64,000 nt of DNA from Nitrososphaerota archaeon (lineage in GTDB: Archaea > Thermoproteota > Nitrososphaeria > Nitrososphaerales > JACPRH01). The notes beneath the pieces were generated by a model that saw only the letters and a program-made list of their open reading frames with translations, searched no databases and had not been told where the DNA came from. Position numbers and translations under genes: made by a program. How positions within the stretch are numbered: the first letter of the stretch is position 1; the number at the start of each line of letters is the position of its first letter. The stretch lies in the NCBI GenBank assembly GCA_016190055.1, contig JACPRH010000017.1:6601-70600 (forward strand), read 5' to 3'. Positions 3,402 to 23,038 of this stretch are shown in pieces.

Positions 3402-3486
3402 GGGGTACTGCGGAGGTGGGGTTGTGGCGGCCAAGACAGCTGGTCAAATTTTCCCCACAGGGTGCAGGAGCCACATGCCTGCACCC
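3402..3486. ncRNA. Candidate pseudoknotted structured RNA, copy 1 (unknown family; strand unresolved)
   Basis: Near-identical to 5772-5856 and 22951-23038. Stems GTGGGG/CCCCAC and GGGTGCAGG/CCTGCACCC; loop GCCACA is complementary to upstream TGTGGC. Confidence 0.6.
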
Positions 3487-3603
3487 AAAGCCCTACTCCA
3501 ATTAATCATCAGCAATTCTCAACACTCATTGATCGCAGGAAACTCTCAGAAACCGACTATTCCAGCCAAATCTAGCCACGCTAGGAACTGGCGGAGTAGC
3601 AGG

Positions 3604-4200
3604 CTAATTCTGCTCCGGCAGCTCTTTTCTAATATGGAACCAGTTTCTCCACATTAAGGGTAGGTTTTTGCCGTACCATTGGTGGAACCAGCTGAGTATT
3701 TCGCTGCGTGTTAGGCCGGCGAGCTGCGCATCCTCCTCAGATAGCTTGTATGGATCTATCTGCTCTGTCTTGTATACTTCAATAACACACTGTGGTTCTT
3801 TGAGATGTGCTTTTACGAAGCGGCTGTGAATAACATAGTAGTAGCCGTGTTTCGGAGTCGTCCTGTAGGTGCACTGGACTTCGCCTCGAAGAATCTTCTC
3901 AATAAGAGGAGCAATAAACACAATCTGCTTAACCCGATTATAATACGCGTCAACAGCCTCAACCCTGAAAGCCTCAGGAAACTTTGCTAGCAGTAAACTC
4001 ACATTCTCATTAAAACTTAGAGTCGGGTCCATCTCACTATCCCAATCAACCCTGCTAAACACATCAGCAGCAGCAACAGACTCAGCAATCCACTTCTTAC
4101 ACCGCTTAACAACAACAGCAGAACCAACACCCCCACTACCACCACTACGACTACTGCGACGCAACCCTAAATCACCAACACCCTCTAAACAACCAAGCAA
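3604..4200 (-). CDS. ASCH/PUA-like domain protein (start uncertain)
   Basis: C-terminal half resembles ASCH proteins (EKILRGEVQCTYR...KLSEEDAQLAG...W). The 5' part is low-complexity, so the true start is probably further downstream. Confidence 0.5.
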   Translation of the reverse strand: MLGCLEGVGDLGLRRSSRSGGSGGVGSAVVVKRCKKWIAESVAAADVFSRVDWDSEMDPTLSFNENVSLLLAKFPEAFRVEAVDAYYNRVKQIVFIAPLIEKILRGEVQCTYRTTPKHGYYYVIHSRFVKAHLKEPQCVIEVYKTEQIDPYKLSEEDAQLAGLTRSEILSWFHQWYGKNLPLMWRNWFHIRKELPEQN

Positions 4201-4644
4201 ACAACAAACAAAGCCCCTCAGAATATAAAACTTACAGCAAGCACCCCGGTTCTGTTGATTGTTTGGGTGTTGTACTTGGATGTTGGAATCTGGGTGGTAA
4301 GGATTAGAGGGAATGAACGGTACTCAGAGAGAGGGTTAAGGTTCAGCGAGGCTGGAAAACGATGAGTACACCCTTAGCGGAGGGAGCAAGAATCAATTAC
4401 AATTTCATCAAGCCACACTCAGCATTAGACGGTCAAACTCCAGCTGAGCGAGCTAAGCTAGATAGAGAAACATGGATGACCTGCTAAAGAAAAGCCTAAG
4501 CCAAGTACCTTAAACTATCAGAACCCGCCATGAAATACTTTATATTTCCTGTACGCTGACGGAAAGGTTGCATGAAATTGAGCGAAAAAGTCGTTTCTCG
4601 TTCCGTGGCCATTTACACGGCATGAAGAAGATAAAGAAAGGAAA

Positions 4645-5526
4645 TTGTCCAAGCATCATAACCCATACGTTAAGAAGGCGGAAAATATTGCGCTACTATC
4701 CGCAATCATCGTCGGCAGCATAGGCATTGCCGAACTCAGCGTAGCGCAGATATCTGGAAGCATTTCACTGCTGGCAGACGGCATCGACGCCATGTCTGAC
4801 GCAAGCGTAACCACAATAGTGTGGTTAGGCATTCGAATAAGCCGTAAGAAAGCTGATAGCCTATTCCACTACGGCTATTACCGTGCAGAGAACCTTTCTG
4901 CATTTCTAATCGCCATAATGCTTGCAATAGTGAGCGGTCTAACATTCTATAATGGATATCTTAGATTTTTTTCACCCATTGCGATAGGATCACCTGCTAT
5001 AGCGCTAGCAACCGCATTCATAGCAGGAACCGTGTCACTGATCTTAGCATTCATCAAGAGAAACATAGCTATCAAATCGAACCTTCTCTCCCTTAAAGCT
5101 GAGGCGACAAACGCAATCAAGGACGGCTCAGCATCCTTTATAGTGTTCTTTAGCATCCTCGCCTCTTTTCTAGGTTTCACACAGATGGACTCGATTGGAG
5201 CAATGATCGTGACCGTATTAATCGCCACAGTGTCGATGACAATCTTGAAGGAAACCACTCTCATACTTCTAGATGCTTGGCATAATCCTGAAGTAGTTAC
5301 TGAGATGAAAAAAATGGTCGAGAATGTTGACGGCGTACGCCTGAAAACTATTAAGCTCAGACAAAGCGGGCCCTACATAGTCGGTGAAATGATAATAACT
5401 GTCAACCCAGAACTAACAGTAGCCGAACTAACCAAGATAAAGGATAAAATTCAGGAAACAGTAAAAAACAAGATAAAAGGATTAGAGAGCCTCATAATTT
5501 CTGCGGAACCACATGGCGATAGATAA
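4645..5526 (+). CDS. Cation diffusion facilitator (CDF/FieF-like) transporter
   Basis: GSISLLADGIDAMSD, HYGYYRAE, six TM segments and a C-terminal ZT dimer domain ending in EPH. Confidence 0.9.
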   Translation: MSKHHNPYVKKAENIALLSAIIVGSIGIAELSVAQISGSISLLADGIDAMSDASVTTIVWLGIRISRKKADSLFHYGYYRAENLSAFLIAIMLAIVSGLTFYNGYLRFFSPIAIGSPAIALATAFIAGTVSLILAFIKRNIAIKSNLLSLKAEATNAIKDGSASFIVFFSILASFLGFTQMDSIGAMIVTVLIATVSMTILKETTLILLDAWHNPEVVTEMKKMVENVDGVRLKTIKLRQSGPYIVGEMIITVNPELTVAELTKIKDKIQETVKNKIKGLESLIISAEPHGDR

Positions 5527-5771
5527 CTCCGGTCAGTCTAATAGCAGTTAACAGTAAAATCCGATAGCTAGCAAGTTGAATATTACCACCCGAATTTCAA
5601 CACCCGTTTTAAACACCCGAAGAATGAACAGACCTTAACGTGCCACTAAACCAACTATCTAAGGCTCGAAGAGATTCCCGTCCGAATTTTGCTAGAAACT
5701 AAAAGATCATGTGACCTGGCCTGTAGGTGGAAAGATAGTAGAATCGCTCGTACCGATTTTGATAAATGTTT

Positions 5772-5856
5772 GGATGCAGTCATGTGGCTCCTGCACCCGT
5801 GGGGAAAATATGACCAGCCTGTCGTTTGAGCCGCCACAACCCCACCTCTACGGTAG
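5772..5856. ncRNA. Candidate pseudoknotted structured RNA, copy 2 (inverted relative to copy 1)
   Basis: Reverse complement reads GAGGTGGGGTTGTGGCGGCTCAAACGACAGGCTGGTCATATTTTCCCCACGGGTGCAGGAGCCACATGACTGCATCC. Confidence 0.6.
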
Positions 5857-5876
5857 TAGAGCTAAAGGTTGAACAC

Positions 5877-5913
5877 AAAAAATGGGGAAGGACGATCCTT
5901 GCTCAGGATCGTC
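5877..5913 (-). terminator. Hairpin + pyrimidine tract
   Basis: On the - strand, GACGATCCT/AGGATCGTC stem then CTTCCCCATTTTTT. Confidence 0.7.
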
Positions 5914-5926
5914 TACACGCTGTTTC

Positions 5927-8179
5927 TTACTTCTTTCGCATCATCATTACTGCTGCTGCGACTATGGCAATGACTGCTATTCCGATTGCTGCGTAGGTTA
6001 CTGGACCCATGGTTTCTGTAGCTGACGTAGCGGTTACGGTCTGTCCAGGTGCAGTAGTAGTTACCGTAGTAGCTACAGTTGTTGCAGAGGTGCTTATGGC
6101 TGTTGTTGTGACGGTTGTGCTCGCGGTGGTGGTTGCAGTGGTTGCTGATGTTGATGTGACAGTCTGGGTTGTTGATGAGGTGATAGTGGTGCTGGCGGTT
6201 GTTGTCACGGTTGTTGTTTTGGCCTCGGCTGCAGCTCGATCGGATAGACCTAGAGCAATTATGGTGGCCGACAAGGCGCGACCAGCGCTGCCGGTTGCGC
6301 CGCCGGATACGAGAGTCAGTATCTTTGAGTTGCCGGCGGAGTCTGCGCCTATTGTAGGTCCGACCCACATCGCTGCACCGACGTTGATTTCATGCAGAAG
6401 TTTGCCTGTATCCTTGTCTAGGAATCTCACGTAGCCGTCTCCAAAGCCGCTGTAAACCATGCCGCCTGTTACGACCATGTGTGAGCGCTGCTGATTGACT
6501 GGCCAGAACCAGGTCCATTTGGCCTTGCCGGTAGCCAAGTCTCTTGCGACAATGGTGGTGTTCGTTATGGGGTAACTCTTAGTAGTGAAGAGGTTTCCTC
6601 CAACGACGTAGGGATTCTCCTTCAGTATATCCACCTGCAGGCCTATTGCATAGTGAATTACTGTCTGTGTCTCCGGGTCGTATGACGGATCTGTGGCGAA
6701 GAGTCCATTGGACCAGAACGGATAGACTGTACATGGGAGAGTGCAGGCTTTACCCTTGTCACCTGGCTTAGTAGCTGGATAGCTTATCCAGTTCCATTCT
6801 CTCATATCGTAGCTGCTATATGGGTCTGGTCGATAGTACTTGACACCCTCAGGCATCGTCTTCAATGCTGATGCACCTATTTGTCCCCAACTTACCTGCT
6901 CAGCCACCACATCGGCTGTCCATACGGGTTTGCCGGTCTTGGCGTCCATTGCGTACAATACTCCTTCCTTGCAGCCCTTCACGTAGATTTTGCCTACTGT
7001 AGATGACTCAGCTAGCATGCCGCTCCAGTTGCAGTCGTAGTCATATGGATCGTGCGGGAATGGCTGTAGCCACCAGGCGCGTTGACCCTTGTTCATATCG
7101 ATGGCCATGATGGTGCTTCCATACAGCCGCGGACCTGGAGCCAGAGACATGTTCGAGTAGGGCCCTTGGTTGCCGGTATTGGTGTATAATATGCCTGTGT
7201 CCTCATCAATTACGGGTTGACCCCAGTTCGAGGTTACACCAGCCCACTTGCTCGGAGCTTGGTTAGGTAGAGCAAAGTCCCATTCGAGTCCAGCTTGGTT
7301 CTTAGCTGCCACATCTGTACATGGATTTGTGCGGAAGTAGCCTATGTCGCATTCCTGTAGGGCCCAGTCTTTTGTAAGCCGGTCATATGGTGGGCTGCTG
7401 TAGACTTTCCATATGATATTGTAGGGTGCATCCATACTTATGCCGACAGTAGTATGCCTTCCATTTCCTGCTCCGTCAGCTCTTAGCGAGCTGTGAATGT
7501 AGCCGGGGAGGACGTAGACGAATTGACGACCCTTTTCGTATGTTCCAACATCCGCTACAGAGTTTAATGTTTGTCTATAGATGAAATTGCTTGAAACCAG
7601 TTGTCCATCGATATTTGTTTTACAGATATCCGCGATCCGGAACTTTGTCTTACCTGTCTTCGCATCTATAGCGTAGATGTCACAGGCCTTTCCGCCGACA
7701 AGTATTGCATCTCCACCCTCCCAGTACCTTACACCGTGAGAGTGACCCGAACCGAATATTACGGGTAGCTTCGCCGCTTCTGTGGCGTTGATCAGATAGT
7801 CGTGTGACCATACCTGTTTGCCGGTCTTCATGTCAATAGCGTATGTTCTGAAGAAGTTCGTGGTGACATAAGCTATGCCGTTGTGGATTATAGGCGGCGC
7901 GGTTGAACCATCCTCCATACCTAGAGAGGTCATCGCCGCCGGCGATAGGGCTTTGCTTCCGAGTGGGAACACCCACTTTACCTCCAGATCCTTCACGTTG
8001 TTCTTGTTGATCTGGGTCTGTGGGCTGTAGTTCCAAGCCCATGAGTTGCCGTTCACACGCTGCCAATCCTTGTCACTATTCGACAGGGGTGCTGCGTACG
8101 CGAGTGCTGGAATGAATGCGCTGAACGCTAGTATAACTAGTACAGTATAATTTGTTACTCTATATCTTCTAGATAACAT
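5927..8179 (-). CDS. PQQ-dependent dehydrogenase-like surface protein
   Basis: Same motifs as 1134-3323 (YSPQTQIN, TGNQGP, PHDPYDYDCNW, GCKEG), Thr stalk, TM-RKK. Start MLSRRY at 8179 chosen from TATA spacing. Confidence 0.8.
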   Translation of the reverse strand: MLSRRYRVTNYTVLVILAFSAFIPALAYAAPLSNSDKDWQRVNGNSWAWNYSPQTQINKNNVKDLEVKWVFPLGSKALSPAAMTSLGMEDGSTAPPIIHNGIAYVTTNFFRTYAIDMKTGKQVWSHDYLINATEAAKLPVIFGSGHSHGVRYWEGGDAILVGGKACDIYAIDAKTGKTKFRIADICKTNIDGQLVSSNFIYRQTLNSVADVGTYEKGRQFVYVLPGYIHSSLRADGAGNGRHTTVGISMDAPYNIIWKVYSSPPYDRLTKDWALQECDIGYFRTNPCTDVAAKNQAGLEWDFALPNQAPSKWAGVTSNWGQPVIDEDTGILYTNTGNQGPYSNMSLAPGPRLYGSTIMAIDMNKGQRAWWLQPFPHDPYDYDCNWSGMLAESSTVGKIYVKGCKEGVLYAMDAKTGKPVWTADVVAEQVSWGQIGASALKTMPEGVKYYRPDPYSSYDMREWNWISYPATKPGDKGKACTLPCTVYPFWSNGLFATDPSYDPETQTVIHYAIGLQVDILKENPYVVGGNLFTTKSYPITNTTIVARDLATGKAKWTWFWPVNQQRSHMVVTGGMVYSGFGDGYVRFLDKDTGKLLHEINVGAAMWVGPTIGADSAGNSKILTLVSGGATGSAGRALSATIIALGLSDRAAAEAKTTTVTTTASTTITSSTTQTVTSTSATTATTTASTTVTTTAISTSATTVATTVTTTAPGQTVTATSATETMGPVTYAAIGIAVIAIVAAAVMMMRKK

Positions 8180-8204
8180 TAGAGCCTTATTTGAAAATGG
8201 CCGC

Positions 8205-8240
8205 ATATAAATGGTGGTAAGACGGCATCCATACGACCAA
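8205..8240 (-). promoter_or_regulatory. Conserved upstream box + TATA box
   Basis: TTGGTCGTATGGATGCCGTCTTACCACCATTTATAT, matches 1073-1108. Confidence 0.7.
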
Positions 8241-8474
8241 ACAGATCATAACTTACTAAAAAGTGCAAATTATACAATCAGGACTTACCGCTTTAGCATC
8301 CATCCAATGCACTAATTATCAGCAATAGGCTGGAGCTGCGCCGTGTGTCGACCGGCTTACTCTATATGCAAATAGGTGATGCTTCTTAACCGGGCAGAAT
8401 CTGATCGAGCCATAATTAGCCCAAAAAATGAGGGTGATTACCGCATTGAAAAGATCGTTCGCTACACCTATCTA

Positions 8475-9884
8475 TCATCTTTTCTTTCTCGCTATGAGTA
8501 GTGCGGCTACTATTACAATAGCGACGAGCGCTACTGCAGATACTGCGTACGTGACTTCTGAGGACAGCCCGCTGGTCTGGGTGAAAGATTGAATGGTAGC
8601 TGCTGTCTGTGCAGGAACTGTGCTGGTGACTGAAGTTGTTGTTGGTGATGCTTGAGTCGAGGTTGTCGTAGTTGTGTTTACGTTGCTTTTAGATCCTAAA
8701 AGAAACTTTTGGACTGTAGCTTCGTAAAAGCCGGCGCCTATGCCCCAAGTAACTCCTGCCGTGTAGATACTGGCGCCTGAGACAACGATACCGTATGCCC
8801 CACCGAACCGAGATCTTTCATAAGTATTGTTCCAGATTATGTTCCCGTTGGAATCATACTTCAAGAGAAGTGTACCAAACCTTTGGAAGTATCCCTTCTT
8901 CCCTGCAACGTAAACGTTGTCATCTGAAACGGCAACCCCGTAAGCTATCTCTGTTTCAATATCACCATATGTTCTACTCCATATCAGGTTCCCGTCGGAG
9001 CCATATTTCAGGAGAATCGCATCTTCTACGTCATTGTCAGGCTCGACTATCCACCCAGCTACATAGATATCCTGCTCAGAGATGCTGATACTCCGCGCCT
9101 CACTAGATCGGTTATTATCCCAGATCTTACGCCATATGGGGCTCCCGTTAGAATTCATTTTTAGGAGAAAGACATCATAGTCCTCTTCACTGCCTGTCGA
9201 TCCTGCCAGGTAGATGTTGTCACCTGAAACTGATACGCCATAAGCGTGAGTCCTATTATTTACACCTCCATCATCATAGGTTTTGTTCCAAATTAACGCC
9301 CCGTCGAGATTGAACGTTGAGATGAACGCGGTGTAACCCTTGTCGCCACCCATAGATCCTGCCACGTATATGCGGTCACCTGAAACGGTGAGACTCTGCG
9401 CCCAATGATACTGATATTCACCCCAAACTTTCTCCCATAGCAGATTCCCGTCTAAATCATACTTCAAAAGAAAGGCATCGAAGTTATCAGTACTACCCGT
9501 ATACCCCACTACATAGACACTGTTACTCGAGACTACTACACTATGCGCCTCATTAATCTGGTTCCTCGTCCAATTCCTGCTCCACAGCAAGTTCCCTTCT
9601 AAATCATACTTCAAAAGAAAAGTAGAGACACCTACGAGATATTCCCCCGACGACGTCACCACATAGACACCATCATCCGAAGTAGCGACACCATACGCCA
9701 CATCATGCCCCTCATGAGTCCATATCTCATACCAACCCATAGGCGGAGCCTCCTCAGCCACTACCGGTGAACACAACAAAATTACAGATACAACCCCAAG
9801 AAACGCAGCATAAAACAAAACCCTCAACTGCCCACTGCCTAGATAATTATTAGCTAAACGAGTCGTCAGCGAAACGCCTACCAA
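8475..9884 (-). CDS. Secreted beta-propeller repeat (SBBP-like) protein with Thr/Ser stalk and TM anchor
   Basis: About seven repeats of AYGV.VS.D.VYV.G...FLLKYD.DGNL.W; C-terminus GLSSEVTYA-TM-RKKR. Confidence 0.75.
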   Translation of the reverse strand: MVGVSLTTRLANNYLGSGQLRVLFYAAFLGVVSVILLCSPVVAEEAPPMGWYEIWTHEGHDVAYGVATSDDGVYVVTSSGEYLVGVSTFLLKYDLEGNLLWSRNWTRNQINEAHSVVVSSNSVYVVGYTGSTDNFDAFLLKYDLDGNLLWEKVWGEYQYHWAQSLTVSGDRIYVAGSMGGDKGYTAFISTFNLDGALIWNKTYDDGGVNNRTHAYGVSVSGDNIYLAGSTGSEEDYDVFLLKMNSNGSPIWRKIWDNNRSSEARSISISEQDIYVAGWIVEPDNDVEDAILLKYGSDGNLIWSRTYGDIETEIAYGVAVSDDNVYVAGKKGYFQRFGTLLLKYDSNGNIIWNNTYERSRFGGAYGIVVSGASIYTAGVTWGIGAGFYEATVQKFLLGSKSNVNTTTTTSTQASPTTTSVTSTVPAQTAATIQSFTQTSGLSSEVTYAVSAVALVAIVIVAALLIARKKR

Positions 9885-10138
9885 AGCTTTCGAATCTCAA
9901 GAATAGCTCCATTATCTAAGTCTTATGCAGATAGAAGATGGCTAAGTTACCTAACTTTGATTCAAATTGGCTTATGTAATGTAGTCGAGTAGCGACTCGT
10001 CTCCACACCCAAGCTAAGAAAACCCCATCCACCTAACTAACTACCTGTCCAGCCTTGCATTAACCCAATTAACCCAGTACAGTAAACAACGCTCAAACTA
10101 ACAGCACATACAATTCTAAGATATATTCAACCAAAATT

Positions 10139-10307
10139 CTTCGGGGATAATCTTGCAAACAGAAACAATGCTTTCAACAAGCATTGCAAGCTTGGGGATC
10201 CTATCCAAGCAGATCCTGTAGAACAGCAGCTTGATTCTTATGCCGCTTTCAATAGTATTTAGATCCTCCCCCCTAGGTCGGCAGCAGGCGTGCGTGCTTC
10301 TCGAAGC
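10139..10307 (+). repeat. Dispersed ~170-bp repeat, copy A
   Basis: Colinear with 57861-58019 (CTTCGGGGATAATCTTGCA...AATGCTTTCAACAAGCA...CAAGCAGATCC...GGCAGCA.GCGTGCGTGC). Confidence 0.75.
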
Positions 10308-10530
10308 ATTGCAAGTATTGCTAAGCATCAATCATTGAACAGTAAGATAACAAACACTAGTATCGGCTATTGACGGAACTGAGAATATCCTGAACATATC
10401 CTGCAACTCCAACATCCCCACCTAAGGAGACCTAAGCAAGCGGACAGTTTTGGAAGCAGGACAAGACATAAGTGGGATTAACTTAACAGTTAAATCCCAC
10501 CGTACACTAGACCCAAGTGGGAAAGAAGGT

Positions 10531-11278: not shown

Positions 11279-11290
11279 TTAGCCGCCGGC

Positions 11291-11407: not shown

Positions 11408-11591
11408 CCCAACCAGCCAACCAAACCATTCCTACGGAGAAACCTAAGCTCTTTAAAACCATTCAATTAGGTGCAATCTGAGAGTTAGTCAACCAGTAAG
11501 TCAAGCTGGACGGTGGCGTAAATTAATCAATTAGCTACCCGGGAGGTGTAGCGATCAGCTTAACAGCGTCTTAGTTTAGTTAAATGTTTTT

Positions 11592-15227: not shown

Positions 15228-15400
15228 ACACCCTTCAAAAAACACGTAGTAATAGTAGGCTAAGATGGAGCCCCTTAGCGAAAAATGGGGCTCTTATGAC
15301 TAGCCTATAACTTATCTTGAAAAAATGCAGCAGGGATTGCCGATGACTAGCTAAGCTGTACGTATACACAGCTGTTTACGCTGAGACAGCTTAGCTTAGC

Positions 15401-17191
15401 TTAGCTTACTAGTGGTCCGGGGCTCTTCAGATATTTTTGTATGCCGTCTGCGGCGAGGTAGGCCATTGCGCCCGCTGGATGTGTACCGGGTGAGATGTTG
15501 TCTCCGAATGGGTAGCAGATTTCTCCTGCCGCGAACATGTTTTCCACATCCCAGCTCTGCATCCACTTGTTGAATGCAGAGGTCTCCGGCTTCGAGCCTG
15601 TTCTAGCACCGTTCCTGACGTGTGCAGCCCAGAGGTCTGGTTTACTTGACAGTTCAGCAACCTTGTTCACCTTTACGTCGGTGCAGCCCATCTTCGTCTG
15701 GATCTCCTGCAGCTTAGGAGCCAAGGCATCAGCTACTCGCCACCTGTTCGCCCCCCAATTAATCGTGATCCTCGCTACGGGGTCGCCGTAGATGTCGTTG
15801 TAATGCGGGTCAAGACTCACATACTGATCCTTGGTAGGTATCTCGGGCCCTGTGGCTGAGAATGAGACTGTAAGCTTAGTTGGGAGCTTCATATCCTTCA
15901 ACCCTTTCTTCCAAGCGCTGCCCCAAGTGGTCTTGCTGGCGTTGAAGGCCGTCACCATGTTGGGCCCTGCGCCCAAGTAGTTCCCGTAAGAGATGGAGGC
16001 GCCGCCTACGAAGTTCTGCCCTTTATGATCAAAGTTGTCATCGGCAAGATCCAGCATCACGAAGCCTCCTCCCGCCTGATTCCCAGAGCTGTAGGTGTTC
16101 ACAGTCATATTCAGAGTACCAGAGACGCTAGTTACAGCGGGCCCGTCACCCAACGTAGGCGCCCTGCCCAGAGAACCAGATATCGTAACCGGATCATAGG
16201 GTTTGCCTATGCCTGATAGAAGCATCAACCTGACAAGGTTGAAACCCCATATCCCGTTAAACACGGTTTTAGCAGGCTGGATGTTTATGTTTCCCTGAGC
16301 ATCGTAATACCTTACACCAGTAGCCTTCTTCCCTGACGCATCCAAGTCTATCCTGTACACGTAGCTGTGCAGCCTGAGATCAAAGTTCCCGGATTTCATC
16401 GCAGCCGGAACCGTTGTCACATGAGAGCTACCTTTCGCACCGGTTTCGCAGGGGAAGTTGCATCGACCAGAGCACCAGCCGCAGTAGATACAACCGTTCC
16501 TAGCGATCCCGTACTGATTCGTATAGGCCTGCGAGATAAGCGCACTAGGCTGCGGATACGGGTGGTAACCGAGGCTTTCCGCCGCGCCTTGAAACACATC
16601 CCCATAGGGTGAGGATGGATGAGCAGGCGTAGGATACTTTACGCCGGGAACAAACGGATCCTGGTTTGTACCAGAGATACCCATCGCCTTCTCCCACTTC
16701 TCGTAGTAAGGCACCATGTCCTCGTAGGAGACCGGGAAATCCTCCATGTCGTGGTTCGCAGGTAGAACCGACTCACCGTACTTGTTGACTGTCTCCGAAT
16801 ACGGCTTGTACGACCACGGACTGTACCGCCCCATAACTCCCCCATAATGGGTACCGGCGCCGCCTACGCCGTGACCTAACGCCTGATACTGAGCCAGCTT
16901 AGTGTATCTTCGGACAGGAAGCGCGACTTGATCCCTGTCGTTCCTCACCGTGAAGGTTGAGAGGTGAAGCGGGTGATCAAACTTCCGCTCAAGCATAATC
17001 GCCCACTCATCATGGATGTTAGATGGAGCCCAATCAGTAGCATAATCCCAGTAAGGCCCCTTCTCAATCCCAACCACCTTGTACCCGGCGGTTGAAAGCT
17101 CAGCGGCAACAGGGCCACCCATATGCCCTAAACCAAGGACAACAACATCAGCCGGCGGATGAGTAATAACGTTGCTGGACATGCTTATCAC
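15401..17191 (-). CDS. GMC family flavoprotein, gluconate 2-dehydrogenase large-subunit-like
   Basis: DVVVLGLGHMGG FAD motif, GVGGAGTHYGG, Cys cluster CIYCGWCSGRCNFPCE, QSWDVENMF. Confidence 0.85.
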   Translation of the reverse strand: MISMSSNVITHPPADVVVLGLGHMGGPVAAELSTAGYKVVGIEKGPYWDYATDWAPSNIHDEWAIMLERKFDHPLHLSTFTVRNDRDQVALPVRRYTKLAQYQALGHGVGGAGTHYGGVMGRYSPWSYKPYSETVNKYGESVLPANHDMEDFPVSYEDMVPYYEKWEKAMGISGTNQDPFVPGVKYPTPAHPSSPYGDVFQGAAESLGYHPYPQPSALISQAYTNQYGIARNGCIYCGWCSGRCNFPCETGAKGSSHVTTVPAAMKSGNFDLRLHSYVYRIDLDASGKKATGVRYYDAQGNINIQPAKTVFNGIWGFNLVRLMLLSGIGKPYDPVTISGSLGRAPTLGDGPAVTSVSGTLNMTVNTYSSGNQAGGGFVMLDLADDNFDHKGQNFVGGASISYGNYLGAGPNMVTAFNASKTTWGSAWKKGLKDMKLPTKLTVSFSATGPEIPTKDQYVSLDPHYNDIYGDPVARITINWGANRWRVADALAPKLQEIQTKMGCTDVKVNKVAELSSKPDLWAAHVRNGARTGSKPETSAFNKWMQSWDVENMFAAGEICYPFGDNISPGTHPAGAMAYLAADGIQKYLKSPGPLVS

Positions 17192-18063
17192 ATACCTCCG
17201 CCTTGAATATCCGTCAAACTCTGCGGAGTCAACCTAACATGGCTAGTCATCCGCATAATCTCCTTAGTTGTCTTCCCGACTTCGCTACCCATGTTCGTGC
17301 CGTTGAACCCCGCTAACTTCCAGCTAACCAGCCCCCGGTTTCCACCGTAAAGCGGATCCGCGAAGAAGCCGCCCATAACCATGTCATGCACCTCTGAAAC
17401 GAACTCCGCGGCAGTAGGGCCGGTGAAGTTAGTCGGCTTGTTATCGAACAGATCCTGCAGCACCTGAATCTTCTTATCCGCACTTAGACTCTCGAAAACC
17501 GCGCCATACGCGCTCTTCGAGTAATCCTGTAGAAACTGTATCCCTCGCCTCCAAAACTCACGGAGCGAAAAAGCATGCTGATACCTAGCACCGGCATTAA
17601 CCCTGATTACAGGAGAACCCTTCGAATAAGTAACCGAACCCACAGTAACCGGGCCAGTTAACCCAGGCTTGATGAACGGCCCCTGCATATACATGTTCCC
17701 GTTCTTCCCATAGCTCCCAGCAAGCTGCCGATCAATGAAGTAAACCACACCAGCCTCCTTCGCCCCAGGCCCCGTTTCCGCATCACTAGGAACCATAGTC
17801 TCAGCCATAGCCTCCACCACAGGCCGCTCACTAGGATTCAAAGACAGAAAACCAGTCAACCTAGAAGAATCATTAACCTGACCCTGAAGCTGAGTAATCT
17901 GCTGATCCTTCTGCTGAAGCTGCGCATCCTTCTGCTGAAGCTCATCAGCCTTCTGCTGCGTCTGCGACGTCAGGAGAGGAATCTCAACCGCTGACGCGAC
18001 AGCAGCACCGCCCACAGCCGCGGCACCAATTTTGATAAAATCACGTCTAGACTTGGACGACAT
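17188..18063 (-). CDS. Gluconate 2-dehydrogenase subunit 3 family protein (Tat signal)
   Basis: SRRDFIK Tat motif, PGAKEAGVVYFIDRQL, GFFADPLYGGNR..SWKLAGF. Confidence 0.85.
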   Translation of the reverse strand: MSSKSRRDFIKIGAAAVGGAAVASAVEIPLLTSQTQQKADELQQKDAQLQQKDQQITQLQGQVNDSSRLTGFLSLNPSERPVVEAMAETMVPSDAETGPGAKEAGVVYFIDRQLAGSYGKNGNMYMQGPFIKPGLTGPVTVGSVTYSKGSPVIRVNAGARYQHAFSLREFWRRGIQFLQDYSKSAYGAVFESLSADKKIQVLQDLFDNKPTNFTGPTAAEFVSEVHDMVMGGFFADPLYGGNRGLVSWKLAGFNGTNMGSEVGKTTKEIMRMTSHVRLTPQSLTDIQGGGM

Positions 18064-18305
18064 ATACCCTTGATTAACACTTGAAATATATATACTTTAT
18101 ACCTAAAATTTTAGTTCATCACTACATACTTTTTTGCTATTTTAAGGGGCGCCGTCTTATTATAGATATTCTAACCAGCCATCTCAACAATATATTGGTC
18201 CGAAAAAACACCTCTAACCGCTACAGTTAGTGCAAGACGCAAGTGAGTTAACTTAATAGCTAAATCCCACCATACACCGACCTGAGTAAGAAACAGCATG
18301 CCCAC

Positions 18306-18630
18306 GGAGGCATCGATGAAGCCGCCAGAATCGCAGCCGAAGCTCTTCAAAGACTAGGTTTTGATAAGCTTGTGAACTACGCGAAAAAAATGAATCGACA
18401 ATCGCTAGTCCAGCGGCTCGGCTTCATTCTGGAAAAACTCTCCAAAAATCAATACACCGTTCCAGCGCATGCATTAGACTAACTCAAGATTCTGGCCCAG
18501 AACGCGTACTCGTATCCTCTAGACCCCAAGAGCGAAAAGGAAGGAGCACTGTCTCCCCGCTGGCACATCTATGCGAACATAGACTGTCTGAGGTGGCTCT
18601 GTGCTTAGAGTCCTACTATCGCGGTCAGAT
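18306..18630 (+). pseudogene. Degraded copy of abiEi 3' end / abiEii 5' end
   Basis: Aligns with ~12514-12841 (GGIDEAAR...QRLGFILEKLSK) with an in-frame TAA near 18480. Confidence 0.8.
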
Positions 18631-18717
18631 CACGGGCACCATTTAACGGCAAGTAGCTGGCTGGACTATAGCGACCAGAAAAATGCACTTATATTACGTA
18701 ATACGATAGTGTTACGT

Positions 18718-18993
18718 ATGGAGATCCTTAACGTTAAGGTTGAGGAAGAGATTAAGGAGAAGCTGGAGAGACTTGTCAAGAGAAGAGCCTACAAGAACAA
18801 GAGCGAAGCAGTAAGAAAGATGTTGGAGGAGCACTTTAACGAGCACCCAGAACTCTTCGCCTCTGATGACCTAGAGGAGATAACCGAAGAGGCAGATAAG
18901 ATGACGGATGAACAGTTCGAGAAGATCGCCGCCGAGGTCTTCAAAGGACCAAAAACAGCAGCTGAACTAGTCGCCGAAGGCAGAGGAAGATAA
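18718..18993 (+). CDS. Ribbon-helix-helix antitoxin
   Basis: MEILNVKV...YKNKSEAVR...AAELVAEGR; palindrome TATTACGTAATA just upstream. Confidence 0.75.
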   Translation: MEILNVKVEEEIKEKLERLVKRRAYKNKSEAVRKMLEEHFNEHPELFASDDLEEITEEADKMTDEQFEKIAAEVFKGPKTAAELVAEGRGR

Positions 18994-19028
18994 CAAGCAA
19001 ACAGCCGCCGAATAATAGTGGATGATGC

Positions 19029-19589
19029 GTGCTTATGCGGCAGTTCTATATGGACACAAATGTCTTCATAGCTCAATTGAAACCTGATGATCCTTACTAT
19101 TTAGAGGCGAAGACTATAGCGCAGCAGATTCAAGATAACGAGATTCAAGCGGAGACATCAGTCCTCACACTAGTTGAAACAGCCTCAGTTGCAAGCAGGC
19201 TTTACCACGCGTCAAAGAGAGGAGAGAAGGGAAACAACAGAGAACGAAAAGCCTTTACCATAAAGCTCCTACGAAGACTCACAACCCTCACAACAAGATT
19301 CATACACATAGCAGGAGACTCACCTATAGCAGTAAGAAGCATCAAAACAAACCTCCCAGAAATATTCAACGAAGCAATCATTCTAAGCCTACAAACCCCT
19401 TTAAGGACATTCGACTTAATGCACCTAGCAGCGGCAAAACATGCAAAACAAATGAACCCAGAGCTAGCCGCATTTGTAACCGGAGACGGCGAATTCCTAT
19501 CAAGAAAACAAGAACTCTCCAAAATCATCAAAATAGCAATACTCTCCCCCAAAGAATACGTAGACGCATTAGGACTCAAGCAGAGATAA
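19029..19589 (+). CDS. PIN-domain toxin (VapC-like)
   Basis: FYMDTNVF, TLVET, LRTFDLMHLA, FVTGD. Confidence 0.8.
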   Translation: MLMRQFYMDTNVFIAQLKPDDPYYLEAKTIAQQIQDNEIQAETSVLTLVETASVASRLYHASKRGEKGNNRERKAFTIKLLRRLTTLTTRFIHIAGDSPIAVRSIKTNLPEIFNEAIILSLQTPLRTFDLMHLAAAKHAKQMNPELAAFVTGDGEFLSRKQELSKIIKIAILSPKEYVDALGLKQR

Positions 19590-19685
19590 ACAGTACACGC
19601 TTAGCCGTTAGCGACGAGCTACAAGCTGACCAAACAAACATTCACCACGATTTATCTTTCAACAATGAAGAACCTAAGGAAGAGT

Positions 19686-20294
19686 TTACTGCGCCTTCTG
19701 TGGTGTCGATGTTTGATATTGGTCGAAGTCTGAGGCGAGCTTCCGCTCCTCAAGATATCCGCATTCGTTGCATTTCACGCTGTCCCTGACCCGTATTACG
19801 GATCCGCCGCACTGGCTGCAGATAGTGTACAGCACACCATCCTCAGGCCTATCCACCGAGAGATGGTAGATTGAGTTTTTGACGCTGTAAACATGAGCTC
19901 GGACAACATCGCCAGGTTTGCAGGTTACTCGGCGACGGTCACGTGCTCGAGGATCGCCGCTGGATTGAAGCATACCGCTGAAACTAGCCTCACTATACTG
20001 ATCGTTAATCTCCTCAATCAAGATATTAGCGATACTCGGCTGCGCAGTCTCCACTGTGCCGATAATAACGTCACCCGGCTTAGGAACACCAATACTGCCC
20101 CTAGAGGGCTTAACCGAAATAACTCTCTGCTTCTTATCAGGCTCCGCGTAACCAACCCGGAGAGCCCGCACCTCACCATTGTCAACAAAAGTGTTCGAAC
20201 CAGCCTCAAACGCCTCAATAACCGCCAACTCATCCCCAGGCATAACCGCCTTCCCCTTACCCTTGGACTTTTGCAGCTTCTCTTCTTCACCCAA
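19686..20294 (-). CDS. csl4: Exosome RNA-binding protein Csl4
   Basis: VMPGDELAVIE, S1 domain, C-terminal Zn ribbon CSQCG...CNECGYLEERKLA. Confidence 0.9.
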   Translation of the reverse strand: MGEEEKLQKSKGKGKAVMPGDELAVIEAFEAGSNTFVDNGEVRALRVGYAEPDKKQRVISVKPSRGSIGVPKPGDVIIGTVETAQPSIANILIEEINDQYSEASFSGMLQSSGDPRARDRRRVTCKPGDVVRAHVYSVKNSIYHLSVDRPEDGVLYTICSQCGGSVIRVRDSVKCNECGYLEERKLASDFDQYQTSTPQKAQ

Positions 20295-20431
20295 CTAAAT
20301 CAAACCGCCGTAGAACGAGGGGGTTCACAGAACTATTTAACCAATTACATACAACAAACAGGTTCTGCTAAGTTAAGGGACAATGGGCTAGTGTGACAAT
20401 TTTCTTATTTTAACAGTTCATTATCAGGTGC

Positions 20432-21589
20432 TCATGTCAAGATTTTAACTATATCATGCGCCATGAACATTCTTCCGTGTTTTCTCTCCGGGGACAGTTC
20501 AGTTAAAATCCCCATGTCTACTAAACATTCTACAGCATTCTTGGCGGGGGGATATGTTACATGAAGGTAGGCCATTGCGTGAGGTATGGTGGTTATCGGA
20601 TTTGTGAAGAGATTGTCAATAAGCCTTGTCGCGCTACCTGACGCCTTTTTGTCAATCAGCTTTTTCTCATAATCGGCTTTCAAGGCCATAAGTGATTGTA
20701 TGTTCTTCACAGTGTCTGTCGCCTGAGATATTACTCCATGCAAGAAGAATCGTATCCACTCCACCCACTCACTTTTCTGACTAACGTCAAGCAATAAATC
20801 ATAATATTTCACTTTGTTACGTTCGATATATGCGCTGAGATACAGTAGCGGTTGGTCTAGTAAGCCTCTGTCTGCTAGTAAAACGGGAATTAACAAGCGC
20901 CCAATTCTTCCATTACCATCACTGAACGGGTGTATAGCCTCGAATTGATAGTGAAGCATGGCGCATTGAACCAATACAGGTATTCGCCCAGGCGGGTTCT
21001 GAATAAATTTCTCAAGATCAGCCATAAGCTGATTTACGTGTTCGGGTAGAGATGGCACATATCTTGCATCCTCAATCTTCGTACCTTCTATCCCTATCCA
21101 GTTCTGTACCGTTCTAAACTCTCCGGGGTGCTTTTCTTGTCCTCTTACATTCAACATCAATATTTTATGCGCACTCTTAATCATTGATACGTCTATTGGT
21201 ACATTGCTTTTGATTCTGCGCAAACATGCATCTAACGCATAAACGTAATTCACTACCTCAGTTACTCTTTTTGTGTCCTCCTCGTCTTCTTTTTCCATGC
21301 CCCTTGCCTCAAAACGGAATACATCAAGAATTGACGCTTGCGTTCCTTCTATCTTGGAACTTAGAACGGCCTCACGCTTTAGATATGGTCTAATCAGCAG
21401 ATTGGGATCAGGCATCAATTTGCCTATCCCCGATAAGGCACCGAGTTGTAAGCTGGCTTCTGCGACTAATGAAGCTAGACTTTCATCATAGTTAATTGTA
21501 GGTGGAAGACTATTGGGAATAAATGTGAGACATCCGTCTTTGTTTTTTACTAAATTACCGCAAGGATTAATAAAATCTTTTTGTTCCAA
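20432..21589 (-). CDS. Fic family protein (DUF4172-type N-terminus, C-terminal HTH)
   Basis: HPFSDGNGRIGR Fic motif, EAVLSSKIEG inhibitory motif. Confidence 0.9.
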   Translation of the reverse strand: MEQKDFINPCGNLVKNKDGCLTFIPNSLPPTINYDESLASLVAEASLQLGALSGIGKLMPDPNLLIRPYLKREAVLSSKIEGTQASILDVFRFEARGMEKEDEEDTKRVTEVVNYVYALDACLRRIKSNVPIDVSMIKSAHKILMLNVRGQEKHPGEFRTVQNWIGIEGTKIEDARYVPSLPEHVNQLMADLEKFIQNPPGRIPVLVQCAMLHYQFEAIHPFSDGNGRIGRLLIPVLLADRGLLDQPLLYLSAYIERNKVKYYDLLLDVSQKSEWVEWIRFFLHGVISQATDTVKNIQSLMALKADYEKKLIDKKASGSATRLIDNLFTNPITTIPHAMAYLHVTYPPAKNAVECLVDMGILTELSPERKHGRMFMAHDIVKILT

Positions 21590-21633
21590 ACATTTTCACC
21601 ACATATATAGGTCAGTCAGTGGTTCATGACGCC

Positions 21634-21653
21634 CATTATAGTATACTATAATG
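21634..21653. promoter_or_regulatory. Perfect 20-bp palindrome upstream of fic (candidate operator)
   Basis: CATTATAGTATACTATAATG. Confidence 0.5.
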
Positions 21654-21801
21654 AACGGGTTTGTAATTATACAAAAACTCATTTTAGTATAATAGGTATG
21701 AGGGCGCTATCATAAATAATTTGCGGTAAATGCCTATTAATGAACGGAAAAGAATGCCACAACATCATGGTAATTGGCATTAAACGCATTTAACCGTTTA
21801 G

Positions 21802-22077
21802 TTATTGCTTCGCAATTTTGTTTCCTATTCTTGCCTCTAATTCAGCGTAATTGAGTTGTCCTTTTTCTTCAAGTATTTCCGCTAAAGATGATATTATAGT
21901 ATCGACTGTCTCTATTTTTTCATTCACAGATTGGCAAGCAAAATACCCTTGTTGAGTTAAAAACGCAATAACGATATTCCGTATTATCTCTGAGTCTTTA
22001 TCACCCATTTCTCCGCGTAGCTGTTCATCAATTATCTTCCAAACGCCTTCGGGTAAGGAAACTAATGCGCGTCTCAT
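21802..22077 (-). CDS. Small RHH/CopG-like protein
   Basis: MRRALVSLPEGVWKII...DSEIIRNIV; ATGA overlap with the transposase stop. Confidence 0.6.
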   Translation of the reverse strand: MRRALVSLPEGVWKIIDEQLRGEMGDKDSEIIRNIVIAFLTQQGYFACQSVNEKIETVDTIISSLAEILEEKGQLNYAELEARIGNKIAKQ

Positions 22078-22618
22078 ACTTTCACCTCCACCTCTTTCTC
22101 GACGTTCTGTTTTTGAGCCGCTTCGATTAGTTTTCTCCACCCCTTGATCTCTATGCCTGATGCCTGCGCAGGTGTTTTACCTAGTACTTGGTGATCTCTG
22201 CAAAAGTTGTAATTCGCCACATATCCCTCTAGTAGCGTTTTGGCGGTCTCCATTGATTTCAAGCCGCGCATCACCTTGACTCTATCCTTTAGTGAACCAT
22301 GTGGCCTTTCTACGATGTTATTGGTTTCTCGCGCTCGGATACCTACACGCTTGACTAGCTCGACTTGACCTACTTTCTTTGGATCTCCAAAGGCAAACAG
22401 GAAGGCATCATCGTAAGTGTTTGAACCATCTACGAATATTGCGCTCGGTCTTGAGCCGCATTCATCCTTAATTCGCTTAAATTGCTAATAGGTTTGCGCT
22501 AGACTTCTGCTATCTGAGAGATACGATGCTACTAGGAAACGAGTTTCCTCGTCTATCGCCTCCCAGAACCACTTGTTGTTGCCGTCAACTTTGATTACGG
22601 TTTCGTCGTGAAAGATTA
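22074..22618 (-). mobile_element. IS6-like DDE transposase/integrase pseudogene
   Basis: HDETVIKVDG..WFWEAIDEETRFLV...FVDG...NNIVERPHGSLKDR...YNFCRDH..LGKTPA; internal TAG near 22488; 5' part missing. Confidence 0.8.
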
Positions 22619-22950
22619 ACCTTCAAAATTTTTTGCCTCCTCGTCCTCCAAAAACGCGCAAGCCATGTTCCTTAACTTAACAGGATCTGGCTAGAGCCCC
22701 TGCGGTTCTTGCGCCACTGAGCGCGATTAACAGGTTGGGCCAACGGCTATGTATGCGAAAGCCACAATGCTCCTCAGAGAGCGAATGGGAGAGTGCCCAT
22801 CTAGCATCCAAGCCAAAATCGACATGGGAGAACCCAACAAACACGCAACAAGCAGATAAATAGAAAGAAAGAGGAAGAAAACAGCTCCACTACAACAGTA
22901 GAGTAGAGTAGAGCCATCACCTACTTTTGATATTTTTCAAAGGGACGATA

Positions 22951-23038
22951 GACGCAGGCATGTGACTCCTGCGTCCGTGGGGAAAATATTAACCAGCCTG
23001 AAGCGGGCCGTCACAATCCCACACCTCCGCAGCACCCC
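22951..23038. ncRNA. Candidate pseudoknotted structured RNA, copy 3
   Basis: Reverse complement reads GGAGGTGTGGGATTGTGACGG...TTTTCCCCACGGACGCAGGAGTCACATGCCTGCGTC, with compensatory changes relative to copies 1 and 2. Confidence 0.6.

What the first reader, a model, noticed from the sequence alone, without database searches (positions are those of the whole stretch)
3402..23038. Unknown pseudoknotted ~85-90 nt element present three times, each just downstream of a PQQ-dehydrogenase gene
Seen: copies at 3402-3486, 5772-5856 and 22951-23038, all in the same orientation relative to the adjacent PQQ-DH gene and about 70-250 nt past its stop, beyond the terminator hairpin. Read in gene sense: GAGGTG(TG)GGRTTGTGRCGG-variable-CTGGTYA..TTTTCCCCAC(A)GGRYGCAGGAGYCACATGMCTGCRYC. 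Stem B co-varies (GGTGCAGG/CCTGCACC in copy 1, GACGCAGG/CCTGCGTC in copy 3). Its loop co-varies with an upstream segment (GCCACA:TGTGGC in copies 1-2, GTCACA:TGTGAC in copy 3), which indicates a pseudoknot enclosed by GTGGG/CCCAC. Indels break any common reading frame. I cannot match it to a riboswitch or ribozyme I know. Inference: a new structured RNA tied to this paralog family, such as an sRNA, a 3'-end processing or nuclease-blocking element, a ribozyme or a ligand sensor. A single-stranded-DNA recombination site for gene-cassette shuffling is also possible. G-U evidence for strand is conflicting.
Basis: partly seen in the sequence, partly recalled or inferred. Interest (0 to 1): 0.88.

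Follow-up and report, generated by a model that had tools for sequence, protein, structure and literature searches.

The report
Multi-copy pseudoknotted RNA-like element in archaea
The three copies belong to a conserved, folded repeat of roughly 100-130 bases, found so far only in one family of heterotrophic Nitrososphaerota archaea, that often but not always follows PQQ-dehydrogenase genes and looks like an undescribed small structured RNA of unknown function.

Summary
The three window copies belong to a family of 17 copies in this 2.2-Mb genome. Four of five related genomes of the same family hold 2-14 copies. None was found in 145 other genomes of the order or 150 of the class. Rfam has no match.

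Helices P1, P2 and P3 are supported on 51 distinct sequences: 96.4% of cells paired, 11 of 24 pairs with changes on both sides, 0 of 500 shuffles as high. The pseudoknot is compatible with the data but nearly invariant. G-U counts and folding energies favour the gene-sense strand.

The link to PQQ-dehydrogenase genes is partial: 10 of 17 copies directly follow such a gene here, 10 of 14 in the sister species, 0 of 7 in another genus. Some copies sit at the same non-PQQ loci in different genera. There the core is 79-88% identical while the flanks are near random.

My best reading (0.4) is a lineage-specific small structured RNA, made from its own promoter or by read-through. Rivals are a cis-acting 3'-end module, a non-autonomous mobile element and a ligand sensor. 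No RNA data were available.

The parts
3392..3505 (+). Copy 1, whole module. P0 hairpin 3392-3415; P1 5' strand 3416-3421; pseudoknot 5' strand 3423-3428; P2 hairpin about 3429-3445; P1 3' strand 3453-3458; P3 hairpin 3460-3486, with the pseudoknot 3' strand in its loop at 3470-3475; C-rich tail about 3487-3505.
   Evidence: Sequence. Fold (-47.4 kcal/mol, z -2.28 on the + strand; z 0.04 on the - strand). Model match 85.7 bits.
5752..5861 (-). Copy 2, whole module. P0 5846-5861; P1 strands 5840-5845 and 5799-5804; P3 5772-5798; tail about 5752-5771.
   Evidence: Sequence. Fold (-39.4 kcal/mol, z -2.85 on the - strand; z 0.01 on the + strand). Model match 91 bits.
22930..23052 (-). Copy 3, whole module. 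P0 23025-23052; P1 with the enclosed P2 22977-23024; P3 22950-22976; tail about 22930-22949. In this copy the tail can also pair with the segment that spans the J region, the P1 3' strand and the P3 5' strand.
   Evidence: Sequence. Fold (-43 kcal/mol, z -2.03 on the - strand; z -0.84 on the + strand). Inverted repeat I1. Model match 86.4 bits.
1077..3323 (+). PQQ-dehydrogenase paralog upstream of copy 1. The listed TTG start is probably too far upstream, because a promoter box lies at 1076-1097.
5927..8206 (-). PQQ-dehydrogenase paralog upstream of copy 2.
23284..25446 (-). PQQ-dehydrogenase paralog upstream of copy 3.
3338..3372 (+). Terminator-like hairpin plus T5 run between PQQ gene 1 and copy 1. 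The same hairpin follows PQQ paralogs that lack the element.
5877..5914 (-). Terminator-like hairpin plus T-run between PQQ gene 2 and copy 2.

Best explanation
The element is a functional, lineage-specific structured RNA module. It is read on the strand that matches the upstream PQQ genes. Its core of about 78 nt has helix P1 enclosing hairpin P2, followed at once by hairpin P3. The loop of P3 can pair with the 5' side of the P1 internal loop to form a pseudoknot. In most genera a hairpin of variable sequence (P0) abuts P1, and a G-poor, C-rich single-stranded tail follows P3. I infer that it acts as a small stand-alone RNA. At some loci it would be made from its own promoter. Behind PQQ-dehydrogenase genes it would come from read-through past the leaky first terminator, as a 3'-UTR-derived RNA. 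The folded core would serve as a stable scaffold, binding protein or resisting nucleases. The tail would be the exposed part that contacts a partner. The link to PQQ genes reflects how the module has been propagated in the shared 3' region of an expanded gene family. It is not a function specific to PQQ. Shown: the family, its distribution, the helices, the strand preference, purifying selection and the partial PQQ link. Inferred: transcription, the RNA ends and the trans-acting role.
For: Family and selection. There are 17 copies here and 2-14 in 4 of 5 genomes of the family. Orthologous copies are kept across genera with the core at 79-88% identity while the flanks run at about 57-67% (orthology).

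Structure. On 51 distinct sequences 96.4% of cells are paired, 11 of 24 pairs have changes on both sides, 0 of 500 shuffles reach this, and slid controls give 34-50% paired. New variants from metagenomes carry further compensatory changes in P1, P2 and P3 (locus L131).

Strand. G-U cells number 97 against 21 A-C cells. Folding z-scores are -2.0 to -2.9 for sense and 0.0 to -0.8 for antisense.

Neither a 5'-UTR nor a 3'-UTR element in every case. At 5 of 17 copies the nearest downstream ORF is convergent. At the MptE-like locus the upstream gene is divergent.

Stand-alone signals, read by eye from the printed sequences. In genus g4 two different loci share the same unit, from about 14 nt before P1 to a T-run 17-21 nt after P3, with A/T-rich boxes about 30-40 nt upstream of P1. 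The C14-type locus has a near-consensus BRE/TATA at -61 (7.4 bits) and a T5 run 3 nt after the core. Four G003 copies share about 190 nt of upstream sequence and three of them share a T-rich 3' end.

Tail. The first 20 nt hold 8% G and 33% C. A CCCAC, CACCC or CCCCC word occurs there in 18 of 48 copies, against 2.5% of random 20-mers.

P0. By my reading of the folds, a hairpin ends within a few nt of P1 in about 15 of 20 copies, with different sequences.
Against: There is no expression evidence. Most copies have no recognisable promoter: only 4 of 49 have a BRE/TATA score of 8 bits or more upstream, against 3% of background windows, and the positions vary. Only 25 of 50 copies have a T4+ run within 45 nt downstream. 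Individual P0 hairpins are mostly not better than shuffles: z is -1.9 or lower in 5 of 20. The pseudoknot has one double change only and competes with a nested extension of P2, which is 97.9% paired. No target or partner protein was identified, and no non-PQQ gene family recurs next to copies. Some copies are decaying (L053 49.8 bits, L028 40.9 bits, L032 partial). Copy number varies from 2 to 17, and the unit is inserted between two otherwise adjacent genes in G003. Both points fit a mobile element as well.
Confidence: 0.4

Rival explanations
1. It is a cis-acting 3'-end module of mRNAs, mainly PQQ-dehydrogenase mRNAs. Transcripts that read through the first terminator fold into the compact element. 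The element then acts as a back-up terminator or insulator, a block to 3'-to-5' exonucleases, or a processing site, possibly self-cleaving.
For: The element lies 63-306 nt behind PQQ genes in the same orientation in 10 of 17 copies here and 10 of 14 in the sister species, always after the hairpin plus T-run. One g4 copy shows the same placement (L028). [quoted passage not shown] In one locus a P-II gene stops about 30 nt before P1 (my count), with no terminator between, and a T-run follows the tail. The G002 ortholog of copy 1 has no PQQ gene upstream and is degenerate at 49.8 bits. Conserved junction nucleotides plus a tertiary loop contact, multiple copies and varied contexts are typical of self-cleaving ribozyme classes (recalled, not tested).
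Against: Copies with a divergent upstream gene cannot be 3'-UTR elements (MptE-like, CheR and UbiA loci). 15 of 26 full-length PQQ paralogs lack the element, and sister paralogs differ in having it. 0 of 7 copies in G003 follow a PQQ gene. Two copies beside decayed PQQ remnants are still intact at 89 and 93.5 bits. No known ribozyme family matches.
Confidence: 0.22
2. It is a non-autonomous mobile element or its relic. It would be mobilised as single-stranded DNA or through an RNA, perhaps by transposon proteins encoded elsewhere. The genome has a dozen or so TnpB-like matches. The fold would be needed for mobilisation rather than for a host function.
For: It occurs in many unrelated intergenic contexts. 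Copy number ranges from 2 to 17 among relatives. In G003 an intergenic stretch of about 384 nt holding the element separates ACT and PfkB genes that are about 16 nt apart in this genome. A 5.6-kb indel against G002 has the element 172 nt from one edge. Element-bearing PQQ paralogs are scattered on the tree: 6 type-A rows need 6 changes. Several copies sit on short contigs or at contig ends. A TTAC-GCTTC motif lies 35-40 nt upstream of P1 in many copies, and the one TnpB element whose empty site I could see sits right after a TTAC (both read by eye).
Against: The window copies have no terminal inverted repeats or target-site duplications. No clean empty site for the element alone was found. No Y1 transposase was found in the genome, which is 87.5% complete. 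The profile finds nothing beside the other tnpB genes. At the C57 locus the TnpB element is a separate insertion that is absent in G002. Positions and structure are kept across genera with compensatory changes. There was no hit in viral contigs.
Confidence: 0.2
3. It is a ligand-sensing aptamer, for example for PQQ, a lanthanide or another metal. It would act in cis, or in trans as an orphan riboswitch.
For: It has a compact, pseudoknotted, three-way-junction-like fold with near-invariant junction nucleotides. It is enriched next to PQQ enzymes. In copy 3 the tail can pair with part of the core, as an expression platform would.
Against: It is not consistently upstream of any gene: 5 of 17 copies have a convergent ORF as nearest downstream neighbour, and distances to same-strand genes run from 122 to 1039 nt. 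The alternative pairing in copy 3 is not seen in other copies I read by eye. No riboswitch family matches. Seventeen copies of one aptamer in 2.2 Mb would be unusual (my judgement).
Confidence: 0.05
4. It is an integron-like attC recombination site that shuffles PQQ gene cassettes as single-stranded DNA.
For: It sits 3' of genes in a fixed orientation. PQQ genes stand in same-strand arrays. The structure is strand-asymmetric.
Against: None of the 5 tyrosine-recombinase matches is near a copy; the closest is 14 kb away. Only 9 of 26 full-length paralogs carry the element. In an array of nine same-strand PQQ genes on contig C53 only one carries it. Sequence conservation is far higher than I recall for attC sites. 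Stand-alone copies exist without a cassette gene.
Confidence: 0.03

Closest known systems
Bacterial repeated extragenic elements transcribed with upstream genes (REP/BIME, Correia/NEMIS, ERIC); recalled from general knowledge
   Same: Multi-copy. Intergenic. Often just past the 3' end of genes in a fixed orientation. Folded as RNA or single-stranded DNA. Able to affect the fate of mRNA 3' ends.
   Different: Those are simple palindromes or elements with terminal inverted repeats, usually present in tens to hundreds of copies. REPs go with a RAYT (Y1) transposase. Here the fold has three or four helices plus a possible pseudoknot. No terminal inverted repeats or target-site duplications were seen. 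No Y1 transposase was found. Positions are kept across genera.
3'-UTR-derived and sibling small RNAs of bacteria and archaea; recalled
   Same: They lie behind the terminator region of expressed genes. There are several similar copies per genome. They have a structured body with a C-rich unpaired stretch.
   Different: No transcript data exist for this element. No target is known. The core is far more conserved and more complex than a typical sRNA body. Part of the copies are stand-alone.
Guide-RNA scaffolds of IS200/IS605-family TnpB elements and their miniature derivatives (PATE); recalled
   Same: A pseudoknotted scaffold that ends next to variable flanking sequence. Multi-copy. TnpB-like genes are present in the genome.
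   Different: No sequence similarity was found beside any other tnpB copy. At C57 the neighbouring tnpB is a separate insertion that is absent in G002. The 3' flank is compositionally constrained rather than arbitrary.
Pistol self-cleaving ribozyme; topology recalled from memory and not tested
   Same: A hairpin whose loop forms a 6-bp pseudoknot with the internal loop of a neighbouring helix, which encloses a third hairpin. This element would match only as a circular permutation.
   Different: The junction lengths and conserved nucleotides differ as far as I recall. The Rfam scans gave no match to any ribozyme family. Cleavage is untested.
Integron attC sites
   Same: 3' of genes. Orientation-specific. 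Strand-asymmetric folding.
   Different: See the rival above: no integrase nearby, not one site per gene, high sequence identity, stand-alone copies.

Membership tests
Any Rfam 15 family | Covariance-model match at the gathering score | tested here: not met
   Whole-window scan: the only hit is a fluoride riboswitch at 29150-29235. Permissive scan of 3340-3520: best E 0.016, to an unrelated model without base pairs.
MITE / simple mobile repeat | Terminal inverted repeats and target-site duplications | tested here: not met
   Only the internal stems were found around the three window copies. Other copies were read by eye only.
MITE / simple mobile repeat | Presence/absence polymorphism with clean empty sites | tested here: inconclusive
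   An insertion-like stretch of about 384 nt lies between ACT and PfkB in G003, where this genome has about 16 nt. No alignable empty site for the element alone was found.
REP / RAYT system | Y1 (IS200-type) transposase in the genome | tested here: not met
   PF01797: 0 matches in G000, which is 87.5% complete. The control search rang in 6 of 14 genomes.
TnpB guide-RNA scaffold / PATE | The element lies at the 3' end of tnpB, or shares sequence with tnpB element ends | tested here: not met
   tblastn finds tnpB-like matches on 13 contigs. The element profile hits none of their flanks. At C57 the element is 5' of a tnpB insertion that is absent in G002.
Integron attC | An integron integrase next to an array in which each cassette ends in a site | tested here: not met
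   Of the 5 PF00589 matches, the nearest to a copy is 14 kb away. 9 of 26 paralogs carry the element.
Riboswitch (cis, 5' UTR) | Constant position upstream of a same-strand gene or gene class | tested here: not met
   5 of 17 copies have a convergent ORF as nearest downstream neighbour. Same-strand distances run from 122 to 1039 nt, to unrelated genes.
Structured non-coding RNA (generic) | Covariation that supports the helices, and a strand preference | tested here: met
   Caveat: the alignment was fitted to the model, and relatedness inflates the shuffle test.
Structured non-coding RNA (generic) | The element is transcribed | not testable with these tools
   No RNA holder was listed for the window stretch.
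Known self-cleaving ribozyme classes | Site-specific self-cleavage | not testable with these tools
   This needs an in vitro assay. No Rfam ribozyme model matches.

The most novel reading that the evidence does not exclude
The core is a new class of catalytic or ligand-binding RNA in archaea. Its three helices meet with 0-2 nt linkers, a hairpin loop docks into an internal loop, and the junction nucleotides are near-invariant. It would be either a self-cleaving ribozyme that cuts read-through and stand-alone transcripts, or an orphan aptamer tied to quinoprotein metabolism. Heterotrophic Nitrososphaerota would have kept it and amplified it beside their expanded PQQ-dehydrogenase genes.
Probability: 0.12. 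Interest if true: 0.85.

Novelty: new variant of a known kind. Interest (0 to 1): 0.55.

Why it matters
Heterotrophic relatives of the ammonia-oxidising archaea are abundant in the dark ocean, soils and groundwater, and they are uncultured. Their hallmark is a large set of highly expressed PQQ dehydrogenases (PMC7300363, passages read). Very little is known about RNA-level regulation in this phylum.

This element is kept under selection even in genomes of about 1 Mb, and it is amplified to 14-17 copies in the larger ones. That makes it a concrete, testable candidate for a new archaeal RNA. If it is an sRNA or a 3'-end module, it bears on how a family of about 26 paralogs is expressed. If it is catalytic or ligand-binding, it would add a rare archaeal example. 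If it is a mobile repeat, it marks the recombination-prone ends of the PQQ gene arrays.

Tried and rejected
Expression. The look-up of sequencing runs on window 1000-9000 listed 20 DNA runs from groundwater, soil and sediment. No RNA holder was listed. I did not use read laying, because DNA contigs cannot show transcripts.

Promoters. A BRE/TATA matrix learned from 200 sites upstream of this genome's own ORFs did not find a general promoter before the element. scan_promoters_terminators was not used, because it models bacterial promoters.

Coding. The conserved ATG in the P3 loop opens frames of 9 to over 60 codons with no conserved sequence beyond P3. The ATG is lost in 4 copies (L139, L028, L053, L032; frames translated by eye). 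Rejected.

Partner genes. An all-against-all comparison of 92 neighbouring ORFs found no recurrent non-PQQ family.

Co-duplication as the sole cause of the PQQ link. The tree shows no clustering of element-bearing paralogs. However, the 3' coding end and the terminator are themselves unusually similar among paralogs. Concerted evolution, repeated loss and insertion therefore cannot be told apart.

Empty sites. Sister paralogs with and without the element lose all similarity right after the terminator T-run. The flanks of the C4 locus are absent from G002. The C29 locus is a 5.6-kb indel.

Wider search. The 64 bacterial stretches that matched the DNA pattern in genome contigs are chance: none reaches E 0.01 with the model, and the best is 0.26. 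Viral contigs gave 0 matches.

The upstream extension specific to G003 is not found in G000.

The MptE|DHS locus could not be checked in G001, G003 or G004. No close DHS ortholog was found there with this query.

Literature. Three full-text searches gave no paper describing this element. For PMC7300363 I read only the passages returned by 'find'. Its supplementary data sets were not seen. The other papers were seen as search listings and abstract starts only.

Full report
WHAT IS THERE

Each lies downstream of a PQQ beta-propeller ORF of about 720-760 aa, on the same strand. A fourth PQQ paralog, cut by the window start (ORF 3-920), has no copy behind it.

The window is contig C49:6601-70600 of a 2.2-Mb assembly with 63 contigs, 87.5% complete. 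A profile of the three copies finds 17 copies genome-wide at E <= 2.5e-13, and the next hit has E 0.34. A covariance model built on the 17 copies finds the same 17.

WHO HAS IT

Four of the five other genomes of the same family have it: G002, same genus, 14 copies; G003, 7; G004, 2; G005, 3. G001 (86% complete) has none. It was not found in 145 genomes of other families of the order, nor in 150 further genomes of the class, both of them samples.

A pattern scan of all species genomes returned 71 stretches. Seven are in records titled Nitrososphaerales or Nitrososphaerota archaeon. The 64 bacterial ones fail the model. A stricter pattern found 19 metagenome stretches, all of which match the model. 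Viral contigs gave none.

Two of the titled records are identical to loci of G004 and G005. The family is therefore the heterotrophic, PQQ-dehydrogenase-rich branch of Nitrososphaerota and its soil and groundwater relatives. This fits PMC7300363 (passages read) and the habitats listed.

ANATOMY

The core is about 78 nt.
- P1 is a 6-bp helix (GTGGGG with CCCCAC).
- P1 encloses an internal loop. The loop holds a near-invariant TTGTGGC, hairpin P2 (4 bp including an invariant G-U, with a loop of variable length and sequence) and a conserved GGTCAGTATTTT.
- After a linker of 0-2 nt comes P3, an 8-9-bp hairpin with a near-invariant 9-nt loop.

On 51 distinct sequences 96.4% of 1215 cells are standard pairs. 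Eleven of 24 pairs show changes on both sides. None of 500 shuffles reaches any of the five measures, and sliding the partners gives 34-50% pairing. By helix, the pairs with double changes are 4 of 6 in P1, 2 of 4 in P2 and 4 of 8 in P3.

The pseudoknot pairs TGTGGC with GCCACA in the P3 loop. It is 98.4% paired, but two of its six pairs never vary and only one shows a change on both sides, in copy 3 of the window. The species ortholog of copy 3 (L046) has a different but still pairing combination. A nested extension of P2 uses the same 5' nucleotides and is 97.9% paired, with no double change in the extra pairs. The pseudoknot is therefore plausible, not shown.

Two caveats apply. The alignments were fitted to the model, and related sequences inflate the shuffle control.

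STRAND

G-U or U-G cells number 97 and A-C cells 21. By helix: P2 54 against 1, P3 29 against 5, pseudoknot 6 against 3, P1 8 against 12. The three window copies fold at -39 to -47 kcal/mol with z -2.0 to -2.9 on the gene-sense strand. On the other strand they fold at -28 to -35 kcal/mol with z 0.0 to -0.8. The functional strand, as RNA or as single-stranded DNA, is the gene-sense one.

THE UNIT IS LONGER THAN THE CORE

A hairpin of variable sequence (P0) ends within a few nt of P1 in about 15 of 20 copies tested, by my reading of the folds. Only 5 of 20 have z of -1.9 or lower, and the marine genus g4 lacks it. A (TT)ACGCTTC-like motif marks its 5' side in g1 and g3, and ATGCTTTC marks it in g4 (read by eye).

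Downstream of P3 the first 20 nt hold 8% G and 33% C. A CCCAC, CACCC or CCCCC word occurs there in 18 of 48 copies, against 2.5% of random 20-mers and 0 of 48 at positions 31-50. A T4+ run follows within 45 nt in 25 of 50 copies.

RELATION TO PQQ GENES

The genome has 26 full-length paralogs, each scoring over 500 bits against the window's PQQ proteins, plus fragments. Of the 17 copies:
- 10 lie 63-244 nt behind a PQQ ORF on the same strand.
- 1 follows a 146-aa remnant (C24).
- 1 follows a DNA remnant of a PQQ 3' end (C29).
- 1 is 348 nt from a contig start.
- 1 (C11) has a G002 ortholog behind a PQQ gene.
- 3 (C4, C14, C57) show no link.

In G002, 10 of 14 copies follow a PQQ gene. In G003 it is 0 of 7, in G004 1 of 2 and in G005 0 of 3, although each of these genomes has a few PQQ genes.

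Of the 26 paralogs, 9 carry the element, 2 end at contig edges and 15 lack it. On the protein tree the carriers are scattered: type-A carriers, 6 rows, need 6 changes, no better than shuffles. Close sister paralogs differ in having it. In such pairs similarity runs through the C-terminal anchor, the stop codon, the conserved hairpin and the T-run, and then stops. The module therefore begins right after the terminator. The 3' coding end and the terminator are themselves unusually alike among paralogs.

STAND-ALONE, CONSERVED LOCI

The first locus has an MptE-like gene on the opposite strand, then the element, then deoxyhypusine synthase. It is seen in G000 (C57), G002 (L034), G005 (L022, L027) and marine metagenomes. 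In G000 a tnpB insertion of about 1.3 kb, absent in G002, lies between the element and the synthase gene.

The second locus has an Hsp20 gene, the element and a convergent HTH gene. It is seen in G000 (C14), G002 (L030) and G003 (L026).

Across genera the core is 79-88% identical while the flanks are at about 57-67%, which is near what global alignment gives unrelated DNA (my judgement). Within the genus the core is 77-99% identical. Other neighbours are unrelated in function: P-II, RNA cyclase, triosephosphate isomerase, UbiA, CheR, and ACT with PfkB. No non-PQQ family recurs.

WHAT THIS EXCLUDES

- A general 5'-UTR regulator. At 5 of 17 copies the nearest downstream ORF is convergent.
- A general 3'-UTR element. 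Several loci have divergent upstream genes.
- Coding sequence. The indels break any frame and the substitutions are compensatory.
- Any Rfam family.
- An integron-like system.

WHAT REMAINS

My preferred reading is a small RNA made on its own or by read-through. In g4 two different loci share one unit bounded by an A/T-rich box upstream and a T-run downstream. The C14-type locus has a near-consensus BRE/TATA and a T5 run. Four G003 copies share about 190 nt upstream, and three of them share a T-rich 3' end.

Against this, only 4 of 49 copies have a strong promoter match, and there are no RNA data.

A cis-acting 3'-end role and a mobile-element origin each explain part of the data. The mobile reading rests on the unit inserted between ACT and PfkB in G003, the 5.6-kb indel, the variation in copy number and the scatter on the tree. 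Against it stand the absence of terminal repeats, the absence of a Y1 transposase, the absence of any clean empty site, and the selection on the fold.

VERDICT

This is a real, previously uncatalogued structured element. The copy number and the exclusive tie to PQQ genes are not. The function is open, and the decisive data are stranded RNA ends and in vitro assays.

Noticed in passing
window 29150-29235 (+): Fluoride riboswitch (crcB motif, RF01734): 41.7 bits against a gathering score of 34, E 3.7e-8.
   Followed up: no
window 1076-1097 (+) and 8216-8237 (-); also upstream of about 11 of 26 PQQ paralogs genome-wide: A conserved box of about 22 nt (GTCGTATRGNNNCYRTCTTACC) lies just upstream of the TATA box of a subset of PQQ-dehydrogenase genes. 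It is probably an operator for a shared regulator. There are 2 matches in the window against 0 expected; the other instances were read by eye. Part of it (GGTCGTAT) resembles the element's GGTCAGTAT in the same sense, which I cannot explain. It also shows that the listed TTG start of ORF 1077-3323 is too far upstream.
   Followed up: partly
G000 contig C57:about 1247-2558 (locus L013); tnpB-like matches on 12 more contigs: A TnpB-like gene (394 aa, Pfam PF07282, E 2e-20) sits in an insertion of about 1.3 kb. The insertion is absent from the orthologous site in G002, lies right after a TTAC and has 11-bp inverted repeats near its ends (the last two read by eye). No Y1 transposase was found in the genome.
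   Followed up: partly
window 3338-3372 (+), 5877-5914 (-), and behind most PQQ paralogs: A conserved terminator-like hairpin (GACGATCC, loop, GGATCGTC) plus T-run follows the PQQ paralogs whether or not the element is present. The last 100 nt or so of coding sequence (the C-terminal membrane anchor) are also unusually alike, which suggests concerted evolution of the 3' ends.
   Followed up: partly
loci L031, L035, L038, L041 (genome G003), about 190 to 40 nt upstream of the core: Four G003 copies share an extra upstream segment of about 150 nt with small covarying hairpins. It is not found in G000. The unit may be a longer RNA or a longer repeat in that genus.
   Followed up: partly
window 20432-21589 (-): A gene for a Fic/DOC-family protein (Fic_N plus Fic domains), about 1.4 kb from copy 3.
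   Followed up: no
window 22927-22992: In copy 3 the 3' tail is 76% complementary over 21 nt to the segment that spans the J region, the P1 3' strand and the P3 5' strand. This is an alternative fold that I did not see in other copies read by eye.
   Followed up: partly
window 3392-3422: In copy 1 the 5' half of P0 with its loop is an 80% direct repeat of the 3' half of P0 plus the P1 5' strand (15 nt, spacing 16). The meaning is unknown.
   Followed up: no
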